Virus record (IMG/VR): IMGVR_UViG_3300020156_000001
Location: 106,321-170,320 of that record
Reading direction: 5' to 3' (one strand)
Length of the DNA: 64,000 nt
Source of the DNA: a virus
Taxonomy: Duplodnaviria > Heunggongvirae > Uroviricota > Caudoviricetes
Below, in pieces: positions 6,553 to 49,277 of the stretch (within the stretch, counting starts at the first letter, position 1; each line of letters starts with the position of its first letter). Made by a program: the position numbers and the translations under genes. The notes under the pieces were generated by a model. That model was not told the DNA's origin. It searched no databases and worked only from the letters and a program-made list of their open reading frames with translations.

Positions 6553-6653
6553 TGGCACCTGCCCCGAACCGGATTCGAACCGATCCAGCCGTCGGAATCG
6601 AACCGATAGCTCACCTAAAGTGGAGTTCCAAACCCCAAAGCACCGCGTGTGCT
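6553..6653 (-). ncRNA. tRNA-like RNA with two tandem T-arm hairpins
   Basis: TCGG-TTCGATT-CCGA and ATCGG-TTCGAAT-CCGGT; ends GCCA. Confidence 0.45.
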
Positions 6654-6657
6654 AGAT

Positions 6658-6780
6658 TTAAACGTTGTTACGACCAATACGTGAAAAGCCAGTGATCTTG
6701 CGAATCTCTTTTGAGATTGCCTTTTCCTTTTTACGCTGAGCTTTTTGCTCGGGCGTTAGCTTTTTACGTTTTTGTTTCAT
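6658..6780 (-). CDS. Small basic hypothetical protein
   Basis: MKQKRKKLTPEQK..., 40 aa; longer track ORF overlaps a tRNA. Confidence 0.5.
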   Translation of the reverse strand: MKQKRKKLTPEQKAQRKKEKAISKEIRKITGFSRIGRNNV

Positions 6781-6789
6781 AGCAAACCT

Positions 6790-6877
6790 TGGAGGACGGC
6801 TGAGGAATCGAACCCCCGGCCTTTCGGCCCCATCTGATTTCGAATCAGTGACCGTAACCCGTACGGCTGAACCATCC
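6790..6877 (-). tRNA. tRNA-Ser(CGA)
   Basis: Loop TTCGAAA, long variable arm, CCA. Confidence 0.9.
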
Positions 6878-6899
6878 ATCAAGCTTATTTATAACGTGC

Positions 6900-7349
6900 T
6901 TAGAAGAAGGTGTCAAGAACGGCGTTTGGCTTTACGGCAAGAATTTCATCAGTGGATGTGATTGGAACAAAGCGGTCCATAGAAACCATGTTATCATCCC
7001 TCACATATGTTCCGATTTGTGTGACAAAATCGGACATAGCCAGGCGAAACATTGAAATGTCGCGAACCGACGTAAAGCATACGGGTATCTCTTCACCTAA
7101 GCTTTTTGAACTTTCTTCCCAGTCACCAATCTGATCAAACACATCATACATAAAGATAGGCAGCAAACACATGCCTTCGGTACGATGGAGTAGATGATCA
7201 AGCATTGCATCAAAATGTGGACGATTTTTATCCAATAGGATTTCGTCGTTGACTAAAGCGGAAACAACAAACTGGTCACTGGCCCGAGCCTTGCTGAAAT
7301 AGCCGGTATTGGTTTCACCAGTGGCCGCGTACCGTTCAAAGACTAGCAT
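6900..7349 (-). CDS. Hypothetical protein
   Basis: 149-aa ORF. Confidence 0.7.
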   Translation of the reverse strand: MLVFERYAATGETNTGYFSKARASDQFVVSALVNDEILLDKNRPHFDAMLDHLLHRTEGMCLLPIFMYDVFDQIGDWEESSKSLGEEIPVCFTSVRDISMFRLAMSDFVTQIGTYVRDDNMVSMDRFVPITSTDEILAVKPNAVLDTFF

Positions 7350-7548
7350 TGTAATCCCGCTTGATTTCCATCAGCAAAAAGAACAAAAGTATCGGCCATA
7401 CTAGGACGAATACAAAGTAGGACCACCACTGAAATCCAAACAGTGGATATCCATAGCGTTTGATGTTATAGGCGTTCCACCACTTTTGAAGGAGCAGGGT
7501 AATTGCTGCACCAGCCAGATAAAGCAGAACACAATCAAACAGCGTCAT
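7336..7548 (-). CDS. Small membrane protein
   Basis: 70 aa, two hydrophobic segments. Confidence 0.65.
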   Translation of the reverse strand: MTLFDCVLLYLAGAAITLLLQKWWNAYNIKRYGYPLFGFQWWSYFVFVLVWPILLFFLLMEIKRDYNASL

Positions 7549-7809
7549 CCAAGCACCGTACCCATAATCAGGCCAGTTACCGAGATCATAAACCCGCTGG
7601 CCAGTGTTGCGCGGAAAAGAAACTTTACTTCTTCAGACATTTCAACTCATGCAAATTGTGCGACGTATTGCAGTTCTAATACTGCATGATCGGCTACCGC
7701 GTCAATCCTCTCTTCAGCTTCTTCGGGTGTTTCTTCCCGCTTCTGCTCAATTAGCATCCGCCGCTGCTCAAGACCAAGCTTGCGACGATATGCTTCCATT
7801 ACCTGTGAT

Positions 7810-8028
7810 TCAGTTATCATTTACAATCTCCGCACAAACCAAACGTTTTGTGCCATGCTCTCGGACTAGTACGGAATGTTGTGGACAATTAGACCGTTGG
7901 GCTTCATTGTCGCGCCAACCCAAATAAAGGGCACCCGCTAAAAGCGCGGCACCAGCAAGAATACCTAATCCGGAAATGATTTCGTTTTGAATTACGAGCT
8001 TTCTAGACAAAGCTTCATTATCATCCAT
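7810..8028 (-). CDS. Small membrane protein, TM-CP...C family
   Basis: One TM then CP-x15-C. Confidence 0.65.
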   Translation of the reverse strand: MDDNEALSRKLVIQNEIISGLGILAGAALLAGALYLGWRDNEAQRSNCPQHSVLVREHGTKRLVCAEIVNDN

Positions 8029-8374
8029 GTGCTATGGTCCCTTACAGTACAGGAGGTTGGTATGCCGTTCCTGACTATTAGCGGCGTCATGAATAAAATT
8101 CAAATTGTTTGTGGAATAGTTGAAGTAACGCAAAGGCCGGGTTTCCTCTCACTTCCCGGCACCTTGGCCACTAGCCCTCTGGAGGCAGCGCCTGCAAACC
8201 AACAAAGACCGCAAATTCGAGGCGACCTCATCGCTCATTTCCGGAATTTTACGTCCTAGCTTTCCCCGTGGCCTTTGGGTTCCACTAGACCAACTTCGTC
8301 CAATGCGTTACTTCAACTTAGCCCGCATATAGCGGAGTAAGTACCAGTTGTCAACACTGTGAGGTGAAAAAATT

Positions 8375-8450
8375 TGGTGCGGGGTACGGGGTTCGAACCC
8401 GTGACATGCGATTTTAGAGATCGCCGCTCTACCAACTGAGCTAACTCCGC
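8375..8450 (-). tRNA. Amber suppressor tRNA (CUA)
   Basis: GCGAT-CTCTAAA-ATCGC anticodon arm, normal D and T arms, ACCA end. Confidence 0.85.
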
Positions 8451-8467
8451 ATTAGCCGCTTTATATG

Positions 8468-8881
8468 CTAGGCGTCCTGTTTTGTCAACACATCATTTGT
8501 ATCTATGTTGGACAAGTGGATAAGTTTTTCGATAAAGTAGGCAAACGCATGTGGAGCACGAGTATCAAACTGTGCAAGCCCTGTACCAAGCCCAGCCTCT
8601 GGCATTACCACAGTCACACCGCGCCGTAGAAGCTCTTCCACTACGGCTAAGTCGGCGTCAACTATCTCGCATACCGCATCGTATTGATCGTCGGAAAAGT
8701 AAGCCTCAGGTGTTTCCTTAGGAAGCCATTTTGTCCGCACACCTAGCGTGTTGGGTTCATCACGGATAACAGCTTGTCCTTTTTTACCACGGCGCTGATT
8801 GTTGTCACCGAACAAAAAGACCTTATCCGGATGAGCCCGAACAAGGTCCAATGTAACCCACGATTCAGTAATCAGCGGCAT
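8468..8881 (-). CDS. Conserved phage protein (VFLFGDN...GKKGQA motif)
   Basis: 137 aa; motif recalled from phage proteins, function unknown. Confidence 0.7.
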   Translation of the reverse strand: MPLITESWVTLDLVRAHPDKVFLFGDNNQRRGKKGQAVIRDEPNTLGVRTKWLPKETPEAYFSDDQYDAVCEIVDADLAVVEELLRRGVTVVMPEAGLGTGLAQFDTRAPHAFAYFIEKLIHLSNIDTNDVLTKQDA

Positions 8882-9288
8882 TAGGCAACCACACGCATAC
8901 GACCTTCTTCAATGTAACGGGCAATACTCTCAACAAAGTAGCGCTCGTTACGCTTGAATAAACGCCCCAAGGGCGAGCAAAGTTGCATGTCATAGACCTT
9001 GCTTGCGATAAGTCCATCGTTGATTTTTGTGCTGATCGAATCCTTAAGACCCAGAATCATAAAGCACTGATTAGGCTTTACATCGTTCTGCGCGGTGGAA
9101 CCCTTGAGTGTTTCGGAGTCAACCCACTGAACAATGGTTCCAATTGGATACGCATGAAGACTGGCCCGCCATGCTTGGTAAGCATGAAAGTTTACTTTTG
9201 CATTAGGAACGGCCATACATGCGATCCTTTTGTTCCTGTGGGACAACGTTGCCGTTTGAGAAGTAGAGGGTTGGTTCACCCGCAGCAA
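8881..9288 (-). CDS. Hypothetical protein
   Basis: 135-aa ORF. Confidence 0.6.
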   Translation of the reverse strand: MLRVNQPSTSQTATLSHRNKRIACMAVPNAKVNFHAYQAWRASLHAYPIGTIVQWVDSETLKGSTAQNDVKPNQCFMILGLKDSISTKINDGLIASKVYDMQLCSPLGRLFKRNERYFVESIARYIEEGRMRVVA

Positions 9289-9478
9289 CTAGCTGTGTAG
9301 CTTCTGCGCGAGGACAATCTTCACCGCAAAGCGTGCAACAGGGATCCTCATCGGCGATAGAAGGATCTTCAAGTTGATCCTCAAGGCTTTGAAACACTTC
9401 AAGCCCATCATCGGACCCAACTAGCTTATCGTTGCATATTGGGCAGAACCGATAAAAATTTAAATCCTTGGTACTCAT
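9203..9478 (-). CDS. Small Zn-finger-like protein
   Basis: CPIC...CTLC. Confidence 0.6.
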   Translation of the reverse strand: MSTKDLNFYRFCPICNDKLVGSDDGLEVFQSLEDQLEDPSIADEDPCCTLCGEDCPRAEATQLVAAGEPTLYFSNGNVVPQEQKDRMYGRS

Positions 9479-9496
9479 TACAAAACCCTACGTGTT

Positions 9497-9573
9497 TGGT
9501 AGGTGCTCCGGGGCTCGAACCCGGGACCCTCTGCTTAAAAGGCAGATGCTCTAACCAACTGAGCTAAGCACCC
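9497..9573 (-). tRNA. tRNA-Lys(UUU)
   Basis: Loop CTTTTAA, CCA. Confidence 0.92.
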
Positions 9574-9586
9574 ATATTTTACGCTC

Positions 9587-9714
9587 GAGAAGAATGAGGA
9601 CTCGAACCCCAGCGCCCAACACGTATCAGCACGATTTCGCTTCAACGCAAGGGGAATTGAACCCCTACCAAGCACGGCTAGCCTTTGCAGGTGTGCCCCA
9701 ACCCTGGTCTTCTC
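9587..9714 (-). ncRNA. 128-nt acceptor-stem plus T-arm RNA with a second internal T-arm
   Basis: GAGAAGA/TCTTCTC closing stem; AGGGG-TTCAATT-CCCCT and TGGGG-TTCGAGT-CCTCA. Confidence 0.55.
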
Positions 9715-10122
9715 TAATCGTCAAACTAGTAGATCATCTCCATCCAATTAAGTCGACGTCCTCGGACTTAAATGGTCTACCAATGTAACAACTATTGGAA
9801 TTATAGCTGATATGGAAAGTCTGTCAACCAGGCTACCAGTTGACAGACAAAGTATTAGATAAACGGATGGCGCTTTGCAACTTCGTGAATGTCCGAACGG
9901 TTCAAACCGATGTCGTTGAGTTCACGATCAGTGAGACGATTGAGTTCAGCAACTGTCTGGCGCTGCTTATTGTAACGCTTAACGGCGTTTTTGATATTCT
10001 CGAGCATTTTAGATTTCCTAAGTTTGTAACTTCCTCTTACTTAGAATTTATACTAAATGGTGCTCAAAAAGCTATACTGGTTCCGCATAGCTGGTAGCTA
10101 TATGAGTTAGGACTTAATTAGT

Positions 10123-13240: not shown

Positions 13241-13491
13241 ATTTTAAAGTTGAAGCCCAGGCGAGGTTTCCTCTCAATCCCTCACACCGTCATGTCCACC
13301 GGAGTGGATCATATAATTCATAATTGACTTAACCGCAACCAAATATAAGGAAAAGTACCCGTATTGCTGGGCCCAGCTCGTATAAAACCTTGTCAACAGC
13401 ATCCTAATGTGCTGCCTATTCCTTACATTTCTGTGCTTCAACTTATACCACATATTAACGAACCGTATGGTTAACGTCAATATAAAAGTTA

Positions 13492-13566
13492 TGCCTTTAA
13501 TAGGATTCGAACCTATATCCTCGAGCTTATCAACCTCGCCGTTTTCTCCGTTTAAACTACAGAGGC
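13492..13566 (-). tRNA. Degenerate tRNA-Ile(GAU), no encoded CCA
   Basis: Loop TTGATAA, T arm ATAGG-TTCGAAT-CCTAT; acceptor extended by flanking pairing. Confidence 0.55.
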
Positions 13567-13833
13567 ATAACCTTTGTAGATCCGGACCAATATTTTGGTT
13601 ATCTCCGGATCATATTTAAAGCCCGCGAGTAACAGATCTTTTTGTATCTCAATCTGATGCCGCTGACCTTTGTCGAGCTCAACCCAACCCTCGCCATGCG
13701 CGACTACGATACTATCGTCGGTGCCCACTCGCATATAAGCGGGCATCTTAGCCGCTGGCACGTGGCCCATTACGATGATAACGGTGCCATCATCGTATAG
13801 TCCGAATGAGGGTTTATCGGTTGAGGAAGTCAT
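13552..13833 (-). CDS. Hypothetical protein
   Basis: 93 aa; 3' end overlaps degenerate tRNA. Confidence 0.6.
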   Translation of the reverse strand: MTSSTDKPSFGLYDDGTVIIVMGHVPAAKMPAYMRVGTDDSIVVAHGEGWVELDKGQRHQIEIQKDLLLAGFKYDPEITKILVRIYKGYASVV

Positions 13834-14762: not shown

Positions 14763-15212
14763 TTACTCGGACACCCAGCCGCAAGCTACCCATTCGGTCT
14801 TCTTGCTTGCTTCTGCCTTGCGGAGACGGGCAGCCTTGATCTTTGCGTAAAGCTTTTCAATGGTCTTCTTCGTTTGCGCCTTAAACTTTTCGTCGTTGGA
14901 GCGCCAGACCATCTGGTTGAGTTCGCGGGCTTCCTTAAGCCAACGCTCAATTGTTGGGGAATCCTTGAACACCTTCATCTGCACCATGTAAGCGACATCT
15001 TTGTCGTTGAGGTTGGTGATGAAAGCTTGCATATCCTCGTACAAGTTGAAGACCTTTGTGGTCCAAACAATCTGAGAGAATTCAGCGGCCGATCCAGTGT
15101 AGCCGCCGTGGCCACGTTCGTGCTTGGCTTGCTTGACTGTCTTCCAGAAATTCTTCGTGAGAGCTTCGCGATCTTTGCCCTTAACAGTAAAGCTGCAATC
15201 CGTAGCACCCAT
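14763..15212 (-). CDS. Hypothetical protein
   Basis: 149 aa, GGAGATCGG RBS. Confidence 0.75.
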   Translation of the reverse strand: MGATDCSFTVKGKDREALTKNFWKTVKQAKHERGHGGYTGSAAEFSQIVWTTKVFNLYEDMQAFITNLNDKDVAYMVQMKVFKDSPTIERWLKEARELNQMVWRSNDEKFKAQTKKTIEKLYAKIKAARLRKAEASKKTEWVACGWVSE

Positions 15213-15277
15213 TTCCGATCTCCTTTGCGTTTTCCGTATTATCAGAATAACACAATTCAGGAAGCCGTCAACCGATT

Positions 15278-17186: not shown

Positions 17187-17275
17187 TGGAGGAGCAACAC
17201 GGAATCGAACCGTAACCCTTTCGGATCCAAAAGCTTAGCAAGCTCCGCTAGCGTTCCCAGGCTAGATGATGCTCC
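17187..17275 (-). tRNA. tRNA-Ser(GCU)
   Basis: Loop TTGCTAA, long variable arm, CCA. Confidence 0.88.
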
Positions 17276-17739: not shown

Positions 17740-17804
17740 AGATTGTGAACTGGCCCCACCACACGCCGTTCACACAACACAACCTTGTAACTCTCCGTTT
17801 TTAG

Positions 17805-18260
17805 TGGAGCAACAAATCTGTGTTTTACCTTTAAAGGGTGCTGGGGAAGGAGCAAGCTCGACCTCCCCAGCTATCCGATCCTACCGTGCGCGGCTAGACC
17901 ATGCACCTCGGATCGAATGGGGTGGTCTAGGACGAGGAGTCGTTCCTTACTCAAGTCCTAGACCAAGAGAGTGCGTGTCCGGTAAGGGGGGCTGCACTCT
18001 CTGTTCGTTCCCAGGGAGAGCCAAGACTCTTCCCTGGGGGATCGCCGGTGACCTCTGCGGCGGCGCGGGTCACAGCAACGATTCTTAAAGGATCCGGAGG
18101 AGACACTCAGGGGTCCTCATATCTCACTCCGGCCATCCAGGCGACCTTTATGCCGAAGCAAATTTGCGCCTAGATTCGAATTAGTCCGGAAGCAACCTTG
18201 AAGTTAATCGTCAGATAAACTAGCCACTTCCGGTGCTAGAGAAGCCGCGTAAACTCCTCT
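17805..18260 (-). ncRNA. Large multi-hairpin structured RNA candidate (~450 nt)
   Basis: At least 8 helices plus long-range closing pairs, between tRNA-Asn and tRNA-Trp; no credible CDS. Confidence 0.7.
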
Positions 18261-18270
18261 AACCTCTTTT

Positions 18271-18345
18271 TGCTCCCCGACCTGGGCTCGAACCAGGGAC
18301 AATTCGATTAACAGTCGAATGCTCTACCAACTGAGCTATCGGGAA
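18271..18345 (-). tRNA. tRNA-Asn(GUU), incomplete CCA
   Basis: Loop CTGTTAA; ends G-CA-AAA. Confidence 0.85.
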
Positions 18346-22910: not shown

Positions 22911-22972
22911 GAATTCCAACGGGTCGCTACTCCCGTATTACCCAGCGTTGCTGGGCGTCCTGCTTTAGACGA

Positions 22973-23062
22973 TGGCTCACCGGTGGCTTGCGAAGTTCCA
23001 CATCTTTCTCCAATACGTCAAACGAGTCGGAGACTGCTCTTGCGCCCTTGAGCTACGGTGTT
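22973..23062 (-). ncRNA. tRNA mimic with expanded anticodon arm and 11-nt T loop
   Basis: TAGCTC...GAGC D arm; TCTCC/GGAGA around 17 nt; GTGG/CCAC; ends CCA. Confidence 0.55.
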
Positions 23063-23064
23063 TG

Positions 23065-24437: not shown

Positions 24438-24442
24438 ATAAG

Positions 24443-24516
24443 CATCCTCGGCTGGATTTGAACCAACATCGTCCACCTAAACAAAGTGGGACTTTCTCCC
24501 TTTAAGCTACGAGAAT
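24443..24516 (-). tRNA. Degenerate tRNA-Asn(GUU), no CCA
   Basis: CCACT-TTGTTTA-GGTGG; G73 then CTT. Confidence 0.6.
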
Positions 24517-24728: not shown

Positions 24729-24809
24729 TGGTGGACCAGACGGAGCGCGTGTCCCTCCGCAGACACGCCCCGAAGGCCACGTGCCCTACCAGCCACTTGT
24801 AGCTGGCCC
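24729..24809 (-). ncRNA. CCA-ended tRNA-shaped RNA lacking T loop and anticodon loop
   Basis: GGGCCAG/CTGGTCC-A-CCA; internal CTAC/GTAG, GCC-TTCG-GGC, GCGTGTC/GACACGC. Confidence 0.6.
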
Positions 24810-24818
24810 ATACAAACT

Positions 24819-24898: not shown

Positions 24899-25123
24899 TT
24901 ACGGAAAGTAAAACGTTCCGATAATTGAGATCCTGCCCTCAAATGGAGCAGGAATAGTTTTTAAGTTGTTGATATCAAAGCTCAATCCATCCGTGTAGAT
25001 GAAGTTTGAGTCATCCATCGCTTTGCGAACTTCCGTATATTGGTTCTCATCGAGTTGATAGATAGCGATATCAGTACCGCTACTTTCCTGATATACGATG
25101 TTTGCGCAAATATAGTAGAACAT
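24899..25123 (-). CDS. Hypothetical protein
   Basis: 74-aa ORF. Confidence 0.6.
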   Translation of the reverse strand: MFYYICANIVYQESSGTDIAIYQLDENQYTEVRKAMDDSNFIYTDGLSFDINNLKTIPAPFEGRISIIGTFYFP

Positions 25124-25131
25124 TCGCTACC

Positions 25132-25331
25132 CCAACTTTATACGCCAAACGATCCTATGATCGGAGCAGGATTTCGAAACCTGCATCTCTTGAGCTTCAC
25201 CGTCGCGGACACCAGTCCGCCCAGGGAATTGAACCCTGATCACCCGTTGCGTTTTACCTTTAAACTACCTCAATTGGACCCGGGGTTAATTACGTCCCTG
25301 TCCGATAAGATCGCTTGGCGTATAAAGTTGG
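25132..25331 (-). ncRNA. Structured RNA with D-arm and two T-arm hairpins inside a ~30-bp inverted repeat
   Basis: CCAACTTTATACGCCAAGCGATCTTAT pairs with ATAGGATCGTTTGGCGTATAAAGTTGG; CAGGG-TTCAATT-CCCTG; GCAGG-TTTCGAAAT-CCTGC. Confidence 0.65.
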
Positions 25332-28351: not shown

Positions 28352-28361
28352 ATGTGTTTTG

Positions 28362-28433
28362 CTCTAGTGGAAGGATTCGAACCTACATCTAGCCCGTTAA
28401 CAGCGGGGTCTCTTACCAGTTGAGTACACTAGA
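28362..28433 (-). tRNA. tRNA-Asn(GUU), no CCA, inside 18-bp inverted repeat
   Basis: Loop CTGTTAA; ATGTGTTTTGCTCTAGTG/CACTAGAGCAAAACACAT. Confidence 0.8.
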
Positions 28434-28604: not shown

Positions 28605-28675
28605 TGGTCGCGGCACCGAGAATCGAACCCGGAGTATCAGCCTTATGAGAGCCGTACCATTCCAAATGTACCGCG
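28605..28675 (-). tRNA. tRNA-Met or Ile2 (CAU), reduced D arm
   Basis: Loop CTCATAA, 71 nt, ACCA. Confidence 0.7.
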
Positions 28676-28682
28676 TTGGGGT

Positions 28683-28770
28683 GGGAGCAAAGAGGCCAAT
28701 CGACGGACATCTACTCGGGCTTAGTCGAATCTTTACCGAGGTCAGCGAGTCCTTTTCCGCATTTGCTCCC
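28683..28770 (-). ncRNA. 88-nt stem-closed RNA
   Basis: GGGAGCAAA/TTTGCTCCC; inner GGAC/GTCC and CTCGG/CCGAG. Confidence 0.45.
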
Positions 28771-29215: not shown

Positions 29216-29290
29216 TGGTCCCAGCGGTGGGAGTTAAACCCACTAAAACACGCTTATCGGGCGTGGTCCGCATCGTTTGGATTCGCTGGA
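29216..29290 (-). tRNA. Atypical tRNA-Ile(GAU), C33
   Basis: Loop CCGATAA; T loop TTTAACT; ACCA. Confidence 0.65.
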
Positions 29291-31722: not shown

Positions 31723-31813
31723 TGGTGGGGAACGGGCTGAATCGAACACCTTGCCCTAAGGGACCTGGGTTACAACCAGGCTTAGCGACCACGCTAACTT
31801 ACTTGCGCTCCCC
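31723..31813 (-). tRNA. Atypical tRNA-Tyr(GUA): 8-bp acceptor, 6-bp D stem
   Basis: GGGGAGCG/CGTTCCCC; TTAGCG-TGGT-CGCTAA; loop TTGTAAC. Confidence 0.65.
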
Positions 31814-31908: not shown

Positions 31909-31916
31909 ATGTAAGG

Positions 31917-31990
31917 CTTTCTGGACGACCCTGGATAGTCGTGTCTCCCACTTGCGCAAGCGGGTGTTTTTCCTGTTAAACTACCAGAAA
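31917..31990 (-). ncRNA. tRNA mimic with 8-nt anticodon loop and non-canonical T loop
   Basis: TTTCTGG/CCAGAAA; CCCGC-TTGCGCAA-GTGGG; ACGAC-TATCCAGG-GTCGT. Confidence 0.6.
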
Positions 31991-32001
31991 CTCTACGTGT
32001 T

Positions 32002-32090: not shown

Positions 32091-32166
32091 TGGTGGAGAG
32101 TATGGGAATCAAACCCATCGGACAGTAATCCTGCCAGGATCACCCGAGTAACTCAGCTCACTCCCC
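32091..32166 (-). tRNA. tRNA-Ala(GGC)
   Basis: Loop CTGGCAG, G3-U70; T loop TTTGATT. Confidence 0.75.
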
Positions 32167-32182: not shown

Positions 32183-32256
32183 TGGTGGACACGCCCGGAA
32201 TCGAACCGGTGTCAGCAATCTTGCAAGGATTACCCGCTAACCCAGAGCCACGGCCC
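32183..32256 (-). tRNA. tRNA-Ala(UGC), bulged acceptor
   Basis: Loop CTTGCAA, G3-U70, ACCA. Confidence 0.72.
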
Positions 32257-32273
32257 ATAAAAGAAGTGCTTAG

Positions 32274-32355
32274 CTGACAGGGCGGGACTCGAACCCGCAG
32301 TTGCTATTCGCGTCGCATTAACAGTGCGGTGCCTTACCATTCGGCTCACCTGCCA
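32274..32355 (-). tRNA. tRNA-Asn(GUU) with long variable region, ends CTA
   Basis: Loop CTGTTAA; 14-nt variable region; flanks pair. Confidence 0.75.
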
Positions 32356-32468: not shown

Positions 32469-32552
32469 TGGTGGGCGGCAGTAGAATCGAACTACTCCCT
32501 TAACGGCGCGGTTTTACAGACCACTTGCTGAAACCATCAGCTTTTGCCGCCC
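32469..32552 (-). tRNA. tRNA-Tyr(GUA)
   Basis: Loop CTGTAAA, variable arm, 5-bp D stem, ACCA. Confidence 0.82.
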
Positions 32553-32565
32553 ATGTTGTGCTTTG

Positions 32566-32649
32566 TTTGCGAGGTAGGACTCGAACCTACAAAACCTTCC
32601 CGGCCTTCGCATTCAAAGTGCGAGATGTTACCAATTCCACCACTCGCAA
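32566..32649 (-). tRNA. tRNA-Gln(UUG) with long variable arm, no CCA
   Basis: Loop CTTTGAA; variable AGGCCGGGAAGGTTTT; flanks pair. Confidence 0.75.
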
Positions 32650-32666: not shown

Positions 32667-32741
32667 TGGATCCCCTTGATGGATTCGAACCACCGACCAA
32701 CCTGCTTTGCAGGGTGCTCTACCTGGCTGAGCTAAAGGGAC
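32667..32741 (-). ncRNA. tRNA mimic with 3-nt anticodon loop
   Basis: Canonical D and T arms and CCA, but CCTGC-AAA-GCAGG. Confidence 0.7.
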
Positions 32742-32927: not shown

Positions 32928-32930
32928 AAG

Positions 32931-32999
32931 TGAGAGCAAGTGAGCGATCTGGGGTCGGTTTGATTTCAAGTCAAGATAACCCAAATCAGTCGGCTCTCA
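32931..32999 (-). ncRNA. Y-RNA-like hairpin, copy 1
   Basis: TGAGAGC-CGA...TTTGGGTTATC...CCCCAG...CTCACTT-GCTCTCA. Confidence 0.6.
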
Positions 33000-33004
33000 A
33001 AAGT

Positions 33005-33081: not shown

Positions 33082-33095
33082 ATAGATGTACTTAG

Positions 33096-33169
33096 TCAGG
33101 GTAGCTGGATTTGAACCAGCGTTGCCACTTTCCAAAAGTGACCGAATAACCAGGCTTTCTCATACCCTG
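33096..33169 (-). tRNA. tRNA-Pro(UGG), ends CTA, inside long inverted repeat
   Basis: Loop TTTGGAA; GATGTACTTAGTCAGGGTA/TACCCTGACTAAGTACATC. Confidence 0.82.
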
Positions 33170-33189
33170 ACTAAGTACATCAAATTGTT

Positions 33190-33268
33190 TGGAGCACCCG
33201 GTCAGACTCGAACTGACATCAATCCAATTACCTTTGACCACGTTCGTAGCGTGGGGGGTTACGGGTGC
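33190..33268 (-). ncRNA. Rearranged tRNA-like RNA (anticodon arm precedes D-like arm), ACG loop
   Basis: GCACCCG-TAACCCC-CCACG-CTACGAA-CGTGG-TCAA-AGGTAATTGGA-TTGA-T arm-CGGGTGC-T-CCA. Confidence 0.7.
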
Positions 33269-33304
33269 ATTTGTTGGGACTTACCGGCTAACCGTGCCCT
33301 TAAT

Positions 33305-33380: not shown

Positions 33381-33384
33381 AAGT

Positions 33385-33446
33385 GTGGACAAGTGAGTTG
33401 CGCTGGGGAGCATCTAAAAAGGATAACCCAAAGCAGTTCGGTCCAC
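33385..33446 (-). ncRNA. Y-RNA-like hairpin, copy 2
   Basis: GTGGAC-CGAA...TTTGGGTTATC...CCCCAG...CTCACTT-GTCCAC. Confidence 0.6.
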
Positions 33447-33452
33447 GAGACT

Positions 33453-33527: not shown

Positions 33528-33542
33528 ATAAGAAAGCTCATC

Positions 33543-33751
33543 TGGGCGTCGAATCGGCCGTTACTAGAGATGAACTTGCCAATGCGGAGAGCAAACCTAT
33601 GACAGTTTGCCTCCGAATTGGATCCTACACTTGAAACCAGTCCAACATTGGAGCACTCGAAGTCTCCGTCGTCCTACAAGCTGTAGTCTGCTTCTATAGG
33701 GAAGCAGCCACCTTATTCCTCAGAGCCAAGCTTTCGCTGCGCTCTTGCCCA
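33543..33751 (-). ncRNA. ~210-nt multi-hairpin RNA at the 5' end of the tRNA transcript
   Basis: TGGGC/GCCCA closure, six internal hairpins, begins right after promoter. Confidence 0.65.
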
Positions 33752-33753
33752 AC

Positions 33754-33782
33754 AGTCTAACAGTTTTGCGTTTCCGTGTCAA
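33754..33782 (-). promoter_or_regulatory. sigma70-type promoter of tRNA array
   Basis: TTGACA-17 nt-TAGACT. Confidence 0.8.
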
Positions 33783-33802
33783 CCGTTTTCTTGTTGTATC
33801 TC

Positions 33803-33832
33803 GTTATATGCTTTGTTTCTTTTCCGCGTCAA
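33803..33832 (-). promoter_or_regulatory. Second tandem sigma70-type promoter
   Basis: TTGACG-18 nt-TATAAC. Confidence 0.6.
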
Positions 33833-33885
33833 CTACTTTTTTTATTTCTTTTGAATTTTTATTTTAAGCAGTTTGCGGAAGCTAG

Positions 33886-33921
33886 AAACGACAAAACCCG
33901 GATTAGTTGCCTAATCCGGGT
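33886..33921 (-). terminator. Intrinsic terminator of leader (attenuator candidate)
   Basis: ACCCGGATTAG-GCAA-CTAATCCGGGT-TTTGTCGTTT. Confidence 0.75.
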
Positions 33922-33949
33922 CCGTTAACCTTTTTGGGGAATTCTAAAG

Positions 33950-34108
33950 TTAAATTACTTTAGTTCCTCCTCGGAAAACCGACCCGGTGGTATCTGGGCG
34001 CATATTAAAGCGGTTGCCCAGATACTGTTCGAGTGCCGCGACCACGATAGCCGCAGGCAAGGCTTTAAAGCCCTTAATTTGCCAGCTATGTTGGGTCGTT
34101 GTTTGCAC
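33950..34108 (-). CDS. Leader peptide candidate, 52 aa (not in ORF track)
   Basis: AAAGGAAA RBS, GTG start; MQTTTQHSWQIKGFKALPAAIVVAALEQYLGNRFNMRPDTTGSVFRGGTKVI. Confidence 0.7.
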   Translation of the reverse strand: MQTTTQHSWQIKGFKALPAAIVVAALEQYLGNRFNMRPDTTGSVFRGGTKVI

Positions 34109-34165
34109 GGTCAGTTTCCTTTGAATTCGTTTAAGGCGCCACGTTTGTGGACGCGTCTATGTTTA

Positions 34166-34194
34166 TATTTATAGTTCCTGTATGGAATTGTCAA
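34166..34194 (-). promoter_or_regulatory. Promoter of leader (TTGACA plus TATAAATA)
   Basis: TTGACA at 34194-34189; TATAAATA at 34173-34166. Confidence 0.55.
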
Positions 34195-34231
34195 CTACTT
34201 TAATACAGGAATTACAAATCTTTTGAACTTT

Positions 34232-34483
34232 TTATTCCTCGTCCGCACGGGGCGGCGCAAGTCCAAGCCGTTCATGTGCGAGTACTAATGCGTCGAACGT
34301 AAGTTTTGTTTCGAGTCGAAGCATATCGCGGTGAGATTTTTTCAACTCCGCTAGGCCGGCCTCAAACTGCTTACGCGAATCACGGCCCGGATTCTCCATC
34401 ATTTCCTTGCGGAGCATTGTAAGGGTGATAGTGTCCAGTTTGTACTGATACACCGCTTCTTCATATGCTTGTGTGTCAATCAT
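34232..34483 (-). CDS. Hypothetical helical protein
   Basis: 83-aa ORF. Confidence 0.65.
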   Translation of the reverse strand: MIDTQAYEEAVYQYKLDTITLTMLRKEMMENPGRDSRKQFEAGLAELKKSHRDMLRLETKLTFDALVLAHERLGLAPPRADEE

Positions 34484-46192: not shown

Positions 46193-46591
46193 TCAGAAAG
46201 CCAATTTTAGGATCATAATTGTCTTGGGGTCTTTGGCTTGAACCATAAGCACACCAAAACTTAGAATCTCATCGTTTACGTAGGATCCAACAAAGAAGTC
46301 TTTGCCCTCTTTTAGCTCAGCGCGGGAAAGGATTTCACGAGCATGAAGCTCAGCATTTTGATTCGCTTCCCTTGATTCTTCAGTTAGAAACACCGTTAAA
46401 TGCCCGGGATGGACATAAAAGCGTTCATCCACCACAAGCTCGGCTTGGCACGTATAGATGGGATGATTTATTTCACGGTGAATAAAATCAAATTGCAACT
46501 CATCGAACTTATAGGTGTCGATGTATTCGGCCAAACTTACCGCTTTGCGTTTTTGGAAATAATCCTTAACTTTTTGGGTTATGCGGATCAT
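46193..46591 (-). CDS. Hypothetical protein
   Basis: 132 aa, ends MILKLAF. Confidence 0.7.
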   Translation of the reverse strand: MIRITQKVKDYFQKRKAVSLAEYIDTYKFDELQFDFIHREINHPIYTCQAELVVDERFYVHPGHLTVFLTEESREANQNAELHAREILSRAELKEGKDFFVGSYVNDEILSFGVLMVQAKDPKTIMILKLAF

Positions 46592-46956
46592 CGACGGCGC
46601 TTGTAACCCACACGCAGGGCATCACGGCCGGCGCTGGCATTATATGCGGCAACGTATTCTCGAACACTTTGGTTGCGAGCTTCAACTTCCTCGGCCGCAT
46701 TGCCTGTGCCGCGAATGGGCGCTATGAGATTTGTGCGAGCAGTGCGGTTTAAGCTGTAAACTTTTAGAGCGTGGGTAACAGCGTAGAACGCATTGGTGGA
46801 GCTTGCAAACCCATCCACCTTAACAGTGCCGGATCCGTCAGTAATTCGGGCGGACCAAGTTCCATCCTCTTGAGCAGTGACCATACCAATGGTCTTGCGC
46901 TTGTAGTCGATGTTGAACATACGAGCGTTAAACGGCTTGAGAATGTAATTGGACAT
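46588..46956 (-). CDS. Hypothetical protein
   Basis: 122 aa, promoter and GGAGATCGC RBS. Confidence 0.7.
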   Translation of the reverse strand: MSNYILKPFNARMFNIDYKRKTIGMVTAQEDGTWSARITDGSGTVKVDGFASSTNAFYAVTHALKVYSLNRTARTNLIAPIRGTGNAAEEVEARNQSVREYVAAYNASAGRDALRVGYKRRR

Positions 46957-46993
46957 TTGCGATCTCCTGTTGTTGTCCCAAATTTAGCAGGAT

Positions 46994-47359
46994 TCAGGAA
47001 TATGTCAACCGAATCAGAGCTGCATCCGTCTTATCTCGCAGATAAAGGATGTTTTGCTCTCTTTCGATATGCCATCGAAACGGATCAGAGGTTCCAAATT
47101 GTTCCCTGCAAAAGTCCACAATATGTAGAATAAACGCTCTGGCTGCGTTGTTGTTACGCCAGCGTTCTTCTGGAATGACGTTTCCCTTATCATCGACCAA
47201 CTTGGCTTGATGGAAACCATACCAAGCACGATAACAATGTTGGCCACGCCAAGCCCAACGACCCCAAGAATTAATGTCGTCTCTGCTTTCAACCATAAGA
47301 GAGAACTTCCCCAGTTTTTGAAAATCCTCAAACGGGGGAAGCTTTGGGCTAAACGGCAT
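46994..47359 (-). CDS. Hypothetical protein
   Basis: 121-aa ORF. Confidence 0.7.
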   Translation of the reverse strand: MPFSPKLPPFEDFQKLGKFSLMVESRDDINSWGRWAWRGQHCYRAWYGFHQAKLVDDKGNVIPEERWRNNNAARAFILHIVDFCREQFGTSDPFRWHIEREQNILYLRDKTDAALIRLTYS

Positions 47360-48384
47360 TAGGCTGCCTTAACATCGGCAAGAGTTTCAGCATCCACCAG
47401 CTTGGAGTCGAGATCAATCGAGCATTGCAGCTTGATCATCATAGCTTGGGAGCGATTCTTGAATGCAAATGCCACAGTCCGATAATCGGACTTCATGATA
47501 TAGTCGGACTTTGTGACCTTCTGCGACTTAAAGAAGTCCTTGAACTCCTTGATCTTTTCCGACGTTTCATCCGAATAAAGATCACGATTTGTGTCCTGGA
47601 ACATAAGCAGGGTTGTGAAGTCCTTGCCCTTTTCTTCCATATCCTTGAACACGCTGCGAATTGAACTGCCGTACTTGAGGGTCAGCGGGCGCAAGCGGAA
47701 AGCATTGTCCAGGTAATCCTTGGCCTTAAATGTTTCCTTGACCACCTTTGTGGCTTTGTCGATGGTCTGAACTTCAAGATCGTCTGGAAATTCAACCGTC
47801 TTGCCGCCGGGTTCGAACACATAGTAGATATCGGACGTATCGATACCATCATAGTAACCGGAATGGCTGAGCAGGAACAATTTCGTATCCTGAGAGCGCT
47901 TTTTCTTCATTGCCTTGGTCAGCTTGTCCGAATAAAGAACGCCGCCAGTTTTGTCTGCTTGTTTGATTTCTTCCTTGGATTTATCGTCCCAAGAAGAGTA
48001 AGGGATTTTCACGATATAGCCGAGACTTGGGCTGTGGAAAACGTAGATAAGCTGCTCAACAGCTTCTTCAAGTTCCACGTTGCCCTGCAAGTCTTTGAGC
48101 GTAAAGATGCCCTTGCCGCGGCCTTCAATTTCCAGAGGAATGTAAACGCCGCCGTGCGAGTAATCAACTGGATGATATGTGCTGGACTTGTCTAGAATGT
48201 TGATCGTTTCACCAGCTTTGAAGTCGGTCATCTTCTTGACCGTTTGAACGTGTTCTCGATAGGGAGGACCGTTTGGCAAATCACGCCAAACGTATTTGGC
48301 TGCAAGATGGTTTTCTGCGGAAAAGTCCTTGGTAACTTTCCACTTGCTACCTTTTGCCATTTGCTGGCGAATCGTTAAAGACAT
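47359..48384 (-). CDS. Hypothetical protein
   Basis: 341-aa ORF. Confidence 0.8.
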   Translation of the reverse strand: MSLTIRQQMAKGSKWKVTKDFSAENHLAAKYVWRDLPNGPPYREHVQTVKKMTDFKAGETINILDKSSTYHPVDYSHGGVYIPLEIEGRGKGIFTLKDLQGNVELEEAVEQLIYVFHSPSLGYIVKIPYSSWDDKSKEEIKQADKTGGVLYSDKLTKAMKKKRSQDTKLFLLSHSGYYDGIDTSDIYYVFEPGGKTVEFPDDLEVQTIDKATKVVKETFKAKDYLDNAFRLRPLTLKYGSSIRSVFKDMEEKGKDFTTLLMFQDTNRDLYSDETSEKIKEFKDFFKSQKVTKSDYIMKSDYRTVAFAFKNRSQAMMIKLQCSIDLDSKLVDAETLADVKAA

Positions 48385-48388
48385 TCGA

Positions 48389-48739
48389 TCACTCCACTAG
48401 TTGCTCAAAGAAAACTACGAACTTGTCGCTTGTGTAGTGGGTGTCAAACATTTCGGATTCTTCACCCAGCCCTTTTTTATAACAGGCGACCGTTCCGTCG
48501 TCAAGGAACGTTATGTCTGCATAATTGTACCGAGAGTTTTCGTGGAATTCAAATAGCGCATTGCCTTCATCAGTAACACCAATGAGAAACGGCTTTGCAA
48601 TGTAATGGGATTCAATTACCTCACGAGCCATATCAAAGGTCTTTTGAATTGGCTCCTTCTCATTTTCACCACCATGATCCTCACCAAGATTGCGAACAAT
48701 ATCAAGGCGCTCGAGAAGCTGAGTTTTGATTGAATTCAT
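48389..48739 (-). CDS. Hypothetical acidic protein
   Basis: 116 aa from MNSIK. Confidence 0.7.
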   Translation of the reverse strand: MNSIKTQLLERLDIVRNLGEDHGGENEKEPIQKTFDMAREVIESHYIAKPFLIGVTDEGNALFEFHENSRYNYADITFLDDGTVACYKKGLGEESEMFDTHYTSDKFVVFFEQLVE

Positions 48740-48890
48740 ATGGGTTCCCTCGTGTTGAACGAGAAAGAGCGGGCTGTCAGGCCCGCCCAATCCCGCAAGT
48801 CACATCGTTACAATGTGATTGTTGGCGTCACACCAACACAAACAAATTAACGTGAGGTTTTGCCATTGCAAGGCACTTTTTAAGAAAAAC

Positions 48891-49011
48891 ACGGGACGCC
48901 TGGACTCGAACCAGGAAGGGGACCATCCTCATAAGCCCACGCTACTCCTTTTGATCCAGTAGCCGATGGTCCAGCTATCCTTCACTACTCGTTTCACGAC
49001 TACTCGCCCAT
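48891..49011 (-). ncRNA. ~120-nt acceptor+T-arm RNA with complex interior
   Basis: ATGGGCG/CGTCCCGT; CCTGG-TTCGAGT-CCAGG; GGACCATC/GATGGTCC. Confidence 0.6.
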
Positions 49012-49049
49012 AAAAGAGACCAGGAGTAACCTCAACTGGCCAAACTTTG

Positions 49050-49208
49050 AAACTTTAAATGAAGTTTGCTACCAGAAAAGGACTCGAACCCTATTCCCTA
49101 GCTGCATTGAAATCTCAGATCAGCGTGCTGAAGACCGTCCTTGATTCATCAATACACCATCATTGGGACCACCCCATGCGTACTGATAGCAAACCACATT
49201 TAAAGTTT
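49050..49208 (-). ncRNA. ~123-nt acceptor+T-arm RNA inside a 24-bp inverted repeat
   Basis: AAACTTTAAATG-TG-GTTTGCTATCAG pairs with CTGGTAGCAAAC-TT-CATTTAAAGTTT; AGGG-TTCGAGT-CCTT. Confidence 0.6.
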
Positions 49209-49210
49209 AA

Positions 49211-49277
49211 GAGCTGCTTAGCTACTACTTTCACCCGACACCGTGAATGCTTAGGCGATTTCTTTGCCAAGCAGCTC
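49211..49277 (-). ncRNA. Stem-closed RNA at 5' end of ncRNA cassette
   Basis: GAGCTGCTT/AAGCAGCTC; promoter TTGACT-16-TACATT at 49313-49286. Confidence 0.4.

What the first reader, a model, noticed from the sequence alone, without database searches (positions are those of the whole stretch)
6553..49277. Synthesis: the tRNA region doubles as a collection of tRNA-mimic and structured ncRNAs
Seen: besides about 54 tRNAs there are at least 5 tRNA-sized mimics with intact stems but altered loops (22973, 24729, 31917, 32667, 33190), 5 larger RNAs built on T-arm modules (6553, 9587, 25132, 48891, 49050), Y-like hairpins and two large RNAs. Their stems are intact while functional loops are changed, which is not what random decay produces. 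Established: the T4 tRNA cluster encodes two stable RNAs of unknown function (species 1 and 2), and phage tRNAs counter tRNA-targeting defences. Inference: a decoy/RNA-repair arsenal that titrates anticodon nucleases, uncharged-tRNA sensors (RelA, toxSAS/CapRel) or tRNA-modifying toxins.
Basis: inference. Interest (0 to 1): 0.8.

Follow-up and report, generated by a model that had tools for sequence, protein, structure and literature searches.

The report
Phage tRNA island hides structured RNAs
The tRNA gene island of a 480-kb soil phage also encodes conserved small RNAs built from tRNA parts, including two Y-RNA-type hairpins that fit the phage's own Ro60 protein; other listed "mimics" are odd tRNAs or debris, and the proposed anti-defence decoy role remains untested.

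Summary
The window lies in a 480-kb jumbo phage related to Sinorhizobium phage Phosso and Agrobacterium phage Atu_ph07.

1. Odd but probably working tRNAs that default callers miss: Ser x2, Tyr x2, Ala x2, an Ile-like and a CAU-type.
2. Conserved structured RNAs with compensatory base-pair changes against Phosso: 6506-6662 (15 pairs), 9574-9716 (7), 24730-24810 (3), and 25132-25330 (16 pairs over three phages). 48886-49047 and 49060-49200 have weaker support.
3. Two "Y-like hairpins" (33381-33452 and 32928-33004). They carry the Y-RNA bulged helix (C[C]GA/UUG) plus GGUUAUC. They belong to a family of at least five members in this genome. The family recurs in Phosso, once about 1.2 kb upstream of its Ro60 gene, in Atu_ph07, and right after Ro60 in an unrelated provirus. 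All three phages encode Ro60.
4. Elements 22973, 31917, 33190 and "tRNA-Phe(AAA)" 32667 are absent from, or changed relative to, Phosso. They look like tRNA-gene debris.

The decoy-arsenal reading has no direct support. The loop-less mimics cannot be anticodon-nuclease substrates. The Ro60/Y-RNA reading explains the hairpins only; the T-arm RNAs lack that signature and their partners are unknown. No expression data could be obtained.

The parts
33381..33452 (-). Y-type stem-bulge hairpin YhA. It fills the whole spacer between tRNA-Gly(GCC) and tRNA-Asp(GUC).
   Evidence: It carries GUGGAC-CGA...GGGUUAUC...CACUUG-GUCCAC. The Phosso orthologue scores 27 bits on the Rfam sbRNA/Y-like model RF01656. 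The lower stem covaries.
32928..33004 (-). Y-type stem-bulge hairpin YhB, in the spacer between tRNA-Arg(ACG) and tRNA-Leu(UAG).
   Evidence: It carries GAGAGC-CGA...GGGUUAUC...CACUUG-GCUCUC. The Phosso orthologue has a compensatory change in the lower stem.
25132..25330 (-). An RNA of about 200 nt ('Y25'). It has a terminal helix of about 30 bp enclosing a hairpin, a D-arm-like and a T-arm module, and two more hairpins.
   Evidence: Homologues exist in Phosso and Atu_ph07 (CM R2: 248 and 46.7 bits). 97.9% of cells are paired, and 16 pairs have double changes against 0-2 in slid controls. Rfam tRNA model positions 8-63 score 25.2 bits. No ORF spans it in Atu_ph07.
24730..24810 (-). tRNA-shaped RNA without an anticodon loop, lying between two tRNA-Lys genes. 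It ends with a G3.U70 acceptor-like stem, A73 and CCA, and has a central stem capped by UUCG.
   Evidence: It is 90% identical to Phosso, with 3 compensatory pairs in the central hairpin. It is single-copy in G000 and Phosso and was not found in Atu_ph07. ARAGORN does not call it even at a 70% threshold.
9574..9716 (-). RNA of about 135 nt just upstream of tRNA-Lys(UUU). It has a closing stem, two T-arm modules and a hairpin with a conserved 8-nt loop.
   Evidence: 7 compensatory pairs against Phosso.
6506..6662 (-). Structured RNA between tRNA-Ser(CGA) and tRNA-Ser(UGA). It has two small hairpins, a 77-nt cloverleaf with two T-like arms, and a 10-bp hairpin with a conserved loop.
   Evidence: 15 compensatory pairs against Phosso. 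It is single-copy in G000 and Phosso. The ARAGORN 'tRNA-Pro' call at 6582-6661 overlaps it and is probably an artefact.
28677..28770 (-). RNA of about 95 nt with a 9-bp closing stem. It lies downstream of a strong promoter-like site (28806-28778) and upstream of the CAU tRNA-like gene.
   Evidence: The promoter-like site matches 11 of 12 positions. The core is 91% identical to Phosso and the closing stem has a different sequence there. Folding z-score is -1.98.
48886..49047 (-). Conserved RNA candidate with a perfect T-arm (CCUGG UUCGAGU CCAGG), followed by a run of U.
   Evidence: 83.6% identity to Phosso L022 22490-22654. No compensatory pairs were seen.
49060..49200 (-). RNA candidate of about 140 nt, closed by a 12-13-bp helix and containing a T-arm-like hairpin.
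   Evidence: Phosso has a 12-bp closing helix of unrelated sequence at the syntenic place. Both fold with z about -2.5.
17759..17861 (-). Conserved structured segment just upstream of tRNA-Trp. It contains a D-loop-like UUUAAAGGUAAAAC motif.
   Evidence: 78% identity to Phosso, with a hairpin whose outer stem covaries.
32469..32552 (-). Non-canonical tRNA-Tyr(GUA), class II, with a 5-bp D stem and a 5-nt D loop.
   Evidence: ARAGORN calls it at an 85% threshold. The acceptor and D stems covary with Phosso and Atu_ph07.
31724..31813 (-). Second tRNA-Tyr(GUA)-like gene, with a weak T stem.
   Evidence: The anticodon GUA is conserved. The acceptor, D-like and anticodon stems covary with Phosso.
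32091..32166 (-). tRNA-Ala(GGC) with G3.U70 and T loop UUUGAUU.
   Evidence: It is the orthologue of the annotated Phosso tRNA-Ala(GGC). The stems covary.
32183..32255 (-). tRNA-Ala(UGC) variant with an irregular acceptor stem.
   Evidence: ARAGORN calls it at 85%. It is the orthologue of Atu_ph07 tRNA-Ala(UGC).
29216..29290 (-). tRNA-Ile(GAU)-like RNA with C33 and a non-canonical T loop.
   Evidence: 87% identity to Phosso, with an identical anticodon arm, one compensatory acceptor pair, and a T loop that differs between the phages.
28605..28675 (-). tRNA(CAU)-like gene with a degenerate D arm.
   Evidence: Rfam tRNA score 26.9 bits. The anticodon arm is conserved and the acceptor stem covaries with Phosso.
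6790..6877 (-). tRNA-Ser(CGA), missed by default ARAGORN.
   Evidence: It is annotated in Phosso.
17187..17275 (-). tRNA-Ser(GCU), missed by default ARAGORN.
   Evidence: It is the orthologue of the annotated Phosso tRNA-Ser(GCU).
32667..32740 (-). 'tRNA-Phe(AAA)': a tRNA-Phe copy whose anticodon arm closes on a triloop. Probably disabled.
   Evidence: (33.6 bits).
33190..33268 (-). Lineage-specific chimeric tRNA-derived element without a D arm.
   Evidence: Its T arm is identical over 21 nt to that of tRNA-Leu(UAG). It is absent in Phosso.
31912..31992 (-). Lineage-specific cloverleaf-like element. Unverified.
   Evidence: It is absent in Phosso, where tRNA-Trp and tRNA-Val lie 8 nt apart.
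22911..23064 (-). Lineage-specific 154-nt spacer. No evidence for a structured RNA.
   Evidence: Folding z-score -0.62. It is absent in Phosso, where the two tRNA-Thr genes abut.

Best explanation
The region is a multi-promoter tRNA super-array whose spacers have been colonised by non-decoding RNAs built from tRNA and Y-RNA modules.

Shown:
- At least six of these RNAs keep their base-pairing through compensatory changes, so they are selected as structured RNAs.
- Two of them (33381-33452 and 32928-33004) carry the Y-RNA Ro60-binding helix and belong to a multi-copy family found in all three related Ro60-encoding phages.

Inferred:
- Because each RNA sits between tRNAs or abuts one, its ends are cut by the tRNA-processing enzymes: RNase P at the downstream tRNA, and 3' trimming at the upstream one.
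- The Y-type hairpins bind the phage Ro60. Together with the YrlA-like relatives at 72 and 78 kb of the genome, they gate Ro60 or tether it to a host exoribonuclease such as PNPase, reshaping turnover of structured RNA during infection.
- The T-arm RNAs (6506-6662, 9574-9716, 25132-25330, and the anticodon-less 24730-24810) lack the Ro60 signature. They present a tRNA elbow or acceptor end to some other tRNA-binding protein that is not yet identified.
- 22973, 31917, 33190 and 32667 are by-products of tRNA-gene duplication and decay.
For: Genome identity and comparators.

Covariation:
- 25132-25330: 16 pairs with double changes against 0-2 in slid controls, across three phages.
- 6506-6662: 15 pairs.
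- 9574-9716: 7 pairs.
- 24730-24810: 3 pairs.
- These RNAs are 84-91% identical to Phosso, against 65-70% for neighbouring genes.

Y-type family:
- It shares CCGA, GGUUAUC and CUUG, with a covarying 6-bp lower stem.
- There are five members in this genome, six in Phosso and two in Atu_ph07.
- One member has the exact published YrlA motif GNCGAANG (motif from PMC4201824).
- Three members carry T-arm, AS stem and D-arm in YrlA order. One of these was scored on Rfam YrlA and reached 27.5 bits with no tRNA hit there.

Link to Ro60:
- A full-length Ro60 (TROVE plus vWA) is present in this phage, and TROVE genes are present in Phosso and Atu_ph07.
- A Phosso family member lies about 1.2 kb upstream of its Ro60 gene.
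- An unrelated provirus has the same hairpin about 210 nt after its Ro60 gene.
- Another Ro60 phage has an RF01656 hit above the gathering score 137 nt upstream of Ro60.

Published precedent for phage Ro60 with Y-like RNAs and PNPase: PMC4201824, PMC12135203.
Against: - No expression, end-mapping or binding data exist.
- No member reaches the Rfam gathering score for YrlA (27.5 against 69 bits) or RF01656 (27 against 38 bits).
- In this genome none of the family lies within 4 kb of Ro60, and no copy was found beside it.
- The Y-type hairpins could equally be processing sites.
- The largest conserved RNA (25132-25330) and the other T-arm RNAs lack the Ro60 signature, so the model leaves their partners open.
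- A model built on 25132-25330 found nothing in 22 other Ro60-encoding viral contigs.
- Comparisons rest on only two or three genomes.
Confidence: 0.55

Rival explanations
1. One reading: the elements form a decoy and RNA-repair arsenal. They soak up anticodon nucleases, uncharged-tRNA sensors (RelA, toxSAS/CapRel) or tRNA-modifying toxins.
For: - Several elements keep an acceptor stem plus encoded CCA (24730-24810, 33190-33268, 32667-32740). They could compete for enzymes that attack the tRNA 3' end.
- The array holds many copies of tRNA species that, from my own knowledge, are typical nuclease targets: Lys x4, Asn x4, Tyr-like x2.
- The phage encodes a CCA-adding-type enzyme.
Against: - There is no functional or expression evidence.
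- The tRNA-shaped RNAs have a tetraloop or triloop in place of the anticodon loop. They cannot be cleaved by, or compete for, anticodon-loop nucleases, nor be read on the ribosome by RelA.
- Half of the listed 'mimics' are not conserved.
- No RtcB is present, and only a sub-threshold Rnl2-like match was found.
- The larger RNAs have no CCA end.
Confidence: 0.12
2. Cis-acting elements only. The structures are processing punctuation, stabilisers, leaders or attenuators for the polycistronic tRNA/mRNA transcripts. They would be RNase P, Z, E or III entry sites, not stable trans-acting RNAs.
For: - Every element lies in a spacer next to a tRNA or a small ORF.
- The roughly 30-bp helix of 25132-25330 would suit RNase III (own knowledge).
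- Promoter-like sites are scattered through the array.
- 48886-49047 sits 33 nt upstream of the ThrRS gene in Phosso.
Against: - Blocks of up to 67 identical nucleotides and conserved loop sequences exceed what a cleavage site needs.
- The Y-type signature recurs next to Ro60 genes in unrelated phages.
- Related phages place tRNAs 1-8 nt apart without any such element, so the elements are not needed for processing.
Confidence: 0.2
3. Neutral debris. The elements are decaying tRNA pseudogenes left by duplication within the array.
For: - 22973, 31917 and 33190 are absent from Phosso at syntenic junctions.
- 33190 shares 21 nt with the T arm of tRNA-Leu(UAG).
- 32667 is a tRNA-Phe orthologue with a 2-nt loss in the anticodon arm, and a canonical Phe(GAA) lies beside it.
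- Folding z-scores are unremarkable.
Against: This does not hold for the conserved set. Those elements show compensatory changes and are 84-91% identical against a 65-70% background.
Confidence: 0.1

Closest known systems
Bacterial and phage Y RNAs: YrlA/YrlB of Salmonella and Mycobacterium, Yrn1/Yrn2 of Deinococcus, Yrl1/Yrl2 of Thermus phage phiLo (PMC4201824, PMC12135203)
   Same: A helix formed by the 5' and 3' ends with the C[C]GA/UUG bulged core. A GNCGAA-type 5'-strand motif. A genome that encodes Ro60. Longer members with T-arm, AS stem and D-arm in YrlA order. Several Y RNAs per genome. Short members lacking the tRNA-like domain, like YrlB.
   Different: In this genome the family lies inside tRNA arrays 130-200 kb from the Ro60 gene, not within 4 kb of it. 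There is an extra invariant GGUUAUC block. Rfam scores are far below the gathering score. Binding has not been shown.
Nematode stem-bulge RNAs and vertebrate Y RNAs (Rfam RF01656 and RF00019)
   Same: Short stem-bulge-stem hairpins of about 70 nt with the conserved lower helix. The Phosso orthologue of 33381-33452 scores 27 bits on RF01656, and another Ro60 phage scores 38.5 bits.
   Different: The source is a phage. The window's own copies do not reach E <= 1 on that model.
T4 tRNA-cluster stable RNAs, species 1 and 2 (rnaC, rnaD) - from my own knowledge
   Same: Small stable RNAs of unknown function encoded among phage tRNA genes and matured with them.
   Different: No sequence relation was tested. 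The RNAs here are more numerous and carry explicit T-arm and D-arm modules.
Acceptor-only alanine identity as in the tmRNA tRNA-like domain and tRNA-Ala minihelices - from my own knowledge
   Same: 24730-24810 ends with a G3.U70 pair, A73 and CCA, and lacks an anticodon.
   Different: It has no mRNA-like part and no canonical T loop. A competing local hairpin could sequester the 5' strand. Charging is untested.

Membership tests
Y RNA (Ro60-binding RNA), for 33381-33452 and 32928-33004 | A helix formed by the 5' and 3' ends that contains the conserved bulged core (5' ..C[C]GA.. paired with ..UUG..) | tested here: met
   The core is present in both hairpins, in three further paralogues, and in the Phosso, Atu_ph07 and L091 copies. 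The 6-bp lower stem covaries. The motif definition comes from PMC4201824 and my own knowledge of vertebrate Y RNA.
Y RNA (Ro60-binding RNA), for 33381-33452 and 32928-33004 | The genome encodes a Ro60/TROVE protein | tested here: met
   A 604-aa ORF with TROVE (2.3e-49) and Ro60 vWA (6.6e-50) domains. Phosso and Atu_ph07 also encode one.
Y RNA (Ro60-binding RNA), for 33381-33452 and 32928-33004 | Encoded close to the Ro60 gene (within 4 kb, the criterion of PMC4201824) | tested here: not met
   The window copies lie about 130 kb from Ro60, and no copy was found next to it. Relatives do meet the criterion: a Phosso paralogue about 1.2 kb upstream of Ro60, and an L091 copy about 210 nt downstream.
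Y RNA (Ro60-binding RNA), for 33381-33452 and 32928-33004 | Reaches the gathering score of an Rfam Y-type model | tested here: not met
   No hit in the window. The Phosso orthologue scores 27 bits against a gathering score of 38 on RF01656.
Y RNA (Ro60-binding RNA), for 33381-33452 and 32928-33004 | Physically bound by Ro60 | not testable with these tools
   This needs RIP or EMSA. The complex predictor does not accept RNA chains.
YrlA (RF02553), for 25132-25330 | GNCGAA(N)G motif in the 5' strand of the terminal stem | tested here: not met
   The motif is not in the 5' strand (sequence; motif scan).
YrlA (RF02553), for 25132-25330 | tRNA-like domain in the order T arm, AS stem, D arm | tested here: not met
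   The order is D-like then T arm, with no stem between them. The Rfam tRNA model matches positions 8-63. There is no YrlA hit.
YrlA (RF02553), for 25132-25330 | Long terminal stem enclosing a tRNA-elbow-like module, in a genome that encodes Ro60 | tested here: met
tRNA (RF00005), for 24730-24810, 31912-31992, 33190-33268 and 32667-32740 | Cloverleaf with a 7-nt anticodon loop, D arm and T loop, scoring at or above 29 bits | tested here: not met
   Only 32667 passes, at 33.6 bits, and it has a triloop. The others get no tRNA hit, and ARAGORN finds nothing even at a 70% threshold.
tRNA (RF00005), for 32469, 31724, 32091, 32183, 6790 and 17187 | Conserved anticodon loop, with covarying acceptor and anticodon stems across phages | tested here: met
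   Four of the six are called by ARAGORN at 85%.

The most novel reading that the evidence does not exclude
This jumbo-phage lineage has built a toolkit of at least nine non-decoding RNAs out of tRNA and Y-RNA modules. The toolkit would include a multi-copy Y RNA set for a phage Ro60 and an anticodon-less cloverleaf with alanine identity marks (G3.U70, A73, CCA). That cloverleaf would be charged or attacked in place of real tRNAs, protecting the tRNA 3' ends from acceptor-end toxins. The roughly 200-nt RNA at 25132-25330 would be a new class of tRNA-elbow scaffold.
Probability: 0.12. Interest if true: 0.8.

Novelty: new variant of a known kind. Interest (0 to 1): 0.6.

Why it matters
Phage tRNA arrays are usually read as codon-supply or anti-nuclease spare parts. 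Here the same arrays carry a family of Y-type RNAs for a phage-encoded Ro60, placed far from the Ro60 gene. Searches restricted to the gene's neighbourhood would miss them. The arrays also carry several unclassified RNAs with strong covariation, one of which is shared by three phages of about 470-490 kb.

This gives concrete, cultivable test systems (Phosso on Sinorhizobium, Atu_ph07 on Agrobacterium) for asking what Ro60 and Y RNAs do for a virus.

It also corrects annotations. The lineage does have tRNA-Tyr, "tRNA-Phe(AAA)" is probably disabled, and "tRNA-Pro" at 6582-6661 is probably an artefact.

Tried and rejected
- Reading 25132-25330 as the Ro60 partner was my first lead. I downgraded it because the RNA lacks the signature shared by the true Y-type family. 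Its model also found nothing in 22 other Ro60-encoding viral contigs.
- Rfam gave no family for any of the large elements beyond partial tRNA matches.
- Searches for closer relatives found only distant loci or none. These were an IMG/VR protein scan, an IMG/VR exact pattern and a metagenome protein scan. Covariation therefore rests on Phosso and Atu_ph07.
- nhmmer profiles of the two-sequence alignments found nothing in the Atu_ph07 tRNA region. They also missed the copy of 25132-25330 that the covariance model had located in that stretch, so this negative is uninformative.
- Models R1 (24730-24810) and R3 (6506-6662) hit only this genome and Phosso.
- A three-sequence model of 25132-25330 could not be built because the calibration time limit was exceeded.
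- MAFFT could not align 49060-49200 with its Phosso counterpart.
- Most of the RNAalifold 'covariation' for 17740-18271 sits in unalignable sequence and was disregarded.
- Single-sequence folding z-scores ranged from -0.6 to -2.5 and do not discriminate.
- The ORFs flanking 48886-49047 and 25132-25330 have no Pfam family.

Full report
**Context**

The window is bases 106321-170320 of a 480,347-bp viral record with direct terminal repeats. Its closest public relatives are Sinorhizobium phage Phosso (469 kb, syntenic) and, more distantly, Agrobacterium phage Atu_ph07. The published description of Sinorhizobium phage AP-J-162 lists tRNA-Phe(AAA), tRNA-Pyl(CUA), no tRNA-Tyr and a tmRNA. This fits the genome closely (PMC11242549).

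All tRNA genes in the window are on the minus strand. ARAGORN finds 49 and Rfam finds 44 at or above threshold. Neighbouring protein genes are 65-70% identical to Phosso at the DNA level. That figure is the background for judging conservation.

T-arm modules with a perfect 5-bp stem and a TTCRANY loop occur 55 times on the minus strand and never on the plus strand. Nine lie outside the default tRNA calls. I took each listed element in turn and found four different kinds of thing.

**Kind 1: unusual but probably working tRNAs**

- Relaxed ARAGORN adds Ser(CGA) 6790-6877, Ser(GCU) 17187-17275, Ala(UGC) 32183-32255 and Tyr(GUA) 32469-32552.
- Alignment with Phosso and Atu_ph07 shows conserved anticodon loops and covarying stems for these.
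- The same holds for Ala(GGC) 32091-32166, which has G3.U70 and is annotated in Phosso. It also holds for a second Tyr(GUA)-like gene at 31724-31813, an Ile(GAU)-like gene at 29216-29290 with C33 and an odd T loop, and a CAU gene at 28605-28675.
- So the lineage does have tRNA-Tyr. It is missed because of a 5-bp D stem with a 4-5-nt loop.

**Kind 2: conserved structured RNAs that are not tRNAs**

- 25132-25330 is 89% identical to Phosso, including a 67-nt identical block. A covariance model finds a full-length homologue in Atu_ph07 at 46.7 bits, E about 1e-13.
  - On the three sequences, 97.9% of cells pair and 16 pairs show double changes, against 0-2 when partners are slid.
  - It has a terminal helix of about 30 bp, a covarying hairpin, a D-arm-like and a T-arm module (Rfam tRNA positions 8-63, 25.2 bits), and two more hairpins.
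  - No ORF spans it in Atu_ph07.
- 6506-6662 has 15 compensatory pairs.
- 9574-9716 has 7 compensatory pairs and two T arms.
- 24730-24810 has 3 compensatory pairs in a UUCG-capped central stem. It ends GGGCCAG...CUGGUCC-ACCA with G3.U70. A competing local hairpin for the 5' strand cannot be excluded.
- 28677-28770 is a further RNA, behind a strong promoter-like site. It has a closing stem of different sequence in Phosso.
- 48886-49047 is 84% conserved but shows no covariation.
- 49060-49200 has only a syntenic closing helix as support.

**Kind 3: the "Y-like hairpins"**

The spacers 33381-33452 (Gly/Asp) and 32928-33004 (Arg/Leu) are paralogues. Both have the form 5'-NNNRGC-CGA-(6-8 nt)-GGUUAUC ... 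CUUG-GCYNNN-3'. The core C[C]GA paired with UUG is the conserved bulged helix of Y RNAs.

- Three more members lie at 71.9, 72.5 and 77.7 kb of the genome.
  - One has the exact published YrlA motif GNCGAANG (PMC4201824).
  - All three enclose T arm, AS stem and D arm in YrlA order. The 71.9-kb member, the one scored, reaches 27.5 bits on Rfam YrlA with no tRNA hit there, so it is not a tRNA-dimer artefact.
- Phosso has six members, with covarying lower stems.
  - Its orthologue of 33381-33452 scores 27 bits on the nematode Y-homologue model RF01656.
  - One member lies about 1.2 kb upstream of the Phosso Ro60 gene.
- Atu_ph07 has two short members.
- In an unrelated Ro60-encoding provirus (L091), the same hairpin follows Ro60 by about 210 nt and is itself followed by a tRNA-like RNA.
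- Another such phage has an RF01656 hit above threshold 137 nt upstream of Ro60.
- This phage, Phosso and Atu_ph07 all encode Ro60.

**Kind 4: lineage-specific elements**

In Phosso the flanking tRNAs are 1-8 nt apart where this window has 22911-23064, 31909-32001 and 33170-33304.

- 22973 has no structural signal (z -0.62).
- 31917 is cloverleaf-like with a GCGC-capped stem and is unverified.
- 33190 is a chimera. It has an Arg(ACG)-type anticodon hairpin, a T arm identical over 21 nt to that of tRNA-Leu(UAG), and no D arm.
- 32667, called tRNA-Phe(AAA), is the orthologue of a Phosso tRNA-Phe(GAA). Its anticodon arm is 2 nt shorter and closes on an AAA triloop, and it has a G1.A72 mismatch. 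A canonical Phe(GAA) lies next to it.

These are best read as by-products of duplication and decay.

**How it most likely works**

Shown: selection for structure in at least six RNAs, and a Y-type family associated with Ro60 across phages.

Inferred:
- The RNAs are released by tRNA processing, because they fill spacers between tRNAs or abut one.
- The Y-type hairpins and their YrlA-like relatives bind the phage Ro60 and gate it or tether it to a host exoribonuclease. This has been reported for bacterial Rsr and for Thermus phage phiLo (PMC4201824, PMC12135203).

The T-arm RNAs lack the Ro60 signature. My model of 25132-25330 found nothing in 22 other Ro60-encoding contigs. Their partners remain unknown; a tRNA-elbow-binding or acceptor-binding protein is the natural guess.

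It has no direct support.
- RNAs with a tetraloop or triloop in place of the anticodon loop cannot compete for anticodon nucleases.
- No RtcB is present.
- There is a CCA-adding-type enzyme and only a sub-threshold Rnl2-like match.
- An acceptor-end decoy role for 24730-24810 is not excluded.

**Limits**

- Only two or three genomes could be compared. No closer relatives were found in IMG/VR or in metagenomes.
- No Y-type member reaches an Rfam gathering score.

Noticed in passing
G000:C1:71900-72036, 72436-72580 and 77615-77760 (minus strand; 28-34 kb before the window start; L108 covers the first): Three YrlA-layout RNAs: a closing stem with the CCGA/UUG core, then T arm, AS stem and D arm. 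The first has its own promoter-like site after a terminator. Phosso has orthologues with covarying stems (L113, L130).
   Followed up: partly
window 8375-8450 (-): The 'tRNA-Pyl(CUA)' is an amber-suppressor-type tRNA conserved in Phosso. It is 87.5% identical over 56 nt to the Atu_ph07 tRNA-Trp(CCA) gene, so it looks like a Trp-derived suppressor rather than a pyrrolysine tRNA.
   Followed up: no
window 18272-18345, 24442-24516, 28361-28433, 32273-32355, 32565-32649, 33095-33169, 13491-13567 (-): 50 of 58 tRNA and tRNA-like genes encode CCA, usually as CCAA. Apart from the artefactual call at 6582-6661, seven high-scoring tRNAs do not: all four Asn(GUU), Gln(UUG), Pro(UGG) and Ile(GAU). The phage encodes a CCA-adding-type enzyme at G000:C1:189894-190256.
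   Followed up: no
window 6582-6661 (-): The ARAGORN 'tRNA-Pro(UGG)' of 80 nt overlaps the conserved structured RNA at 6506-6662. It has no CCA and is not annotated in Phosso. It is probably a false call.
   Followed up: partly
window 24899-25123 (-): A 74-aa ORF with no Pfam match lies between the 200-nt RNA and tRNA-Lys(CUU). It is absent from the otherwise collinear Phosso sequence.
   Followed up: no
window 15209-15272 and L001 24907-24973: A promoter-plus-leader block (TTGACG ... TATTCT, then an RBS and ATG) is 88% identical at non-syntenic places in the two phages. It looks like a portable early-promoter cassette.
   Followed up: no
window 33528-34235 (-): The roughly 700 nt upstream of the first tRNA of the main array are 79% identical to Phosso, well above the coding background. 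The stretch includes a promoter-like site at 33782-33754 and a 13-bp terminator-like hairpin at 33923-33894.
   Followed up: no
IMG/VR loci L091, L092, L094, L099, L103: In other Ro60-encoding phage contigs, Ro60 sits directly beside same-strand tRNA arrays and tRNA-like RNAs. These RNAs either lack an acceptor stem or carry 40-65-nt insertions in place of the anticodon arm.
   Followed up: partly
L022 (Phosso 380000-404867): Phosso encodes threonyl-tRNA synthetase, ribosome recycling factor, IF-3 and S21 near the array. The ThrRS gene is missing at the syntenic place in this window, where 48389-48790 and 47359-48384 have no Pfam match.
   Followed up: no
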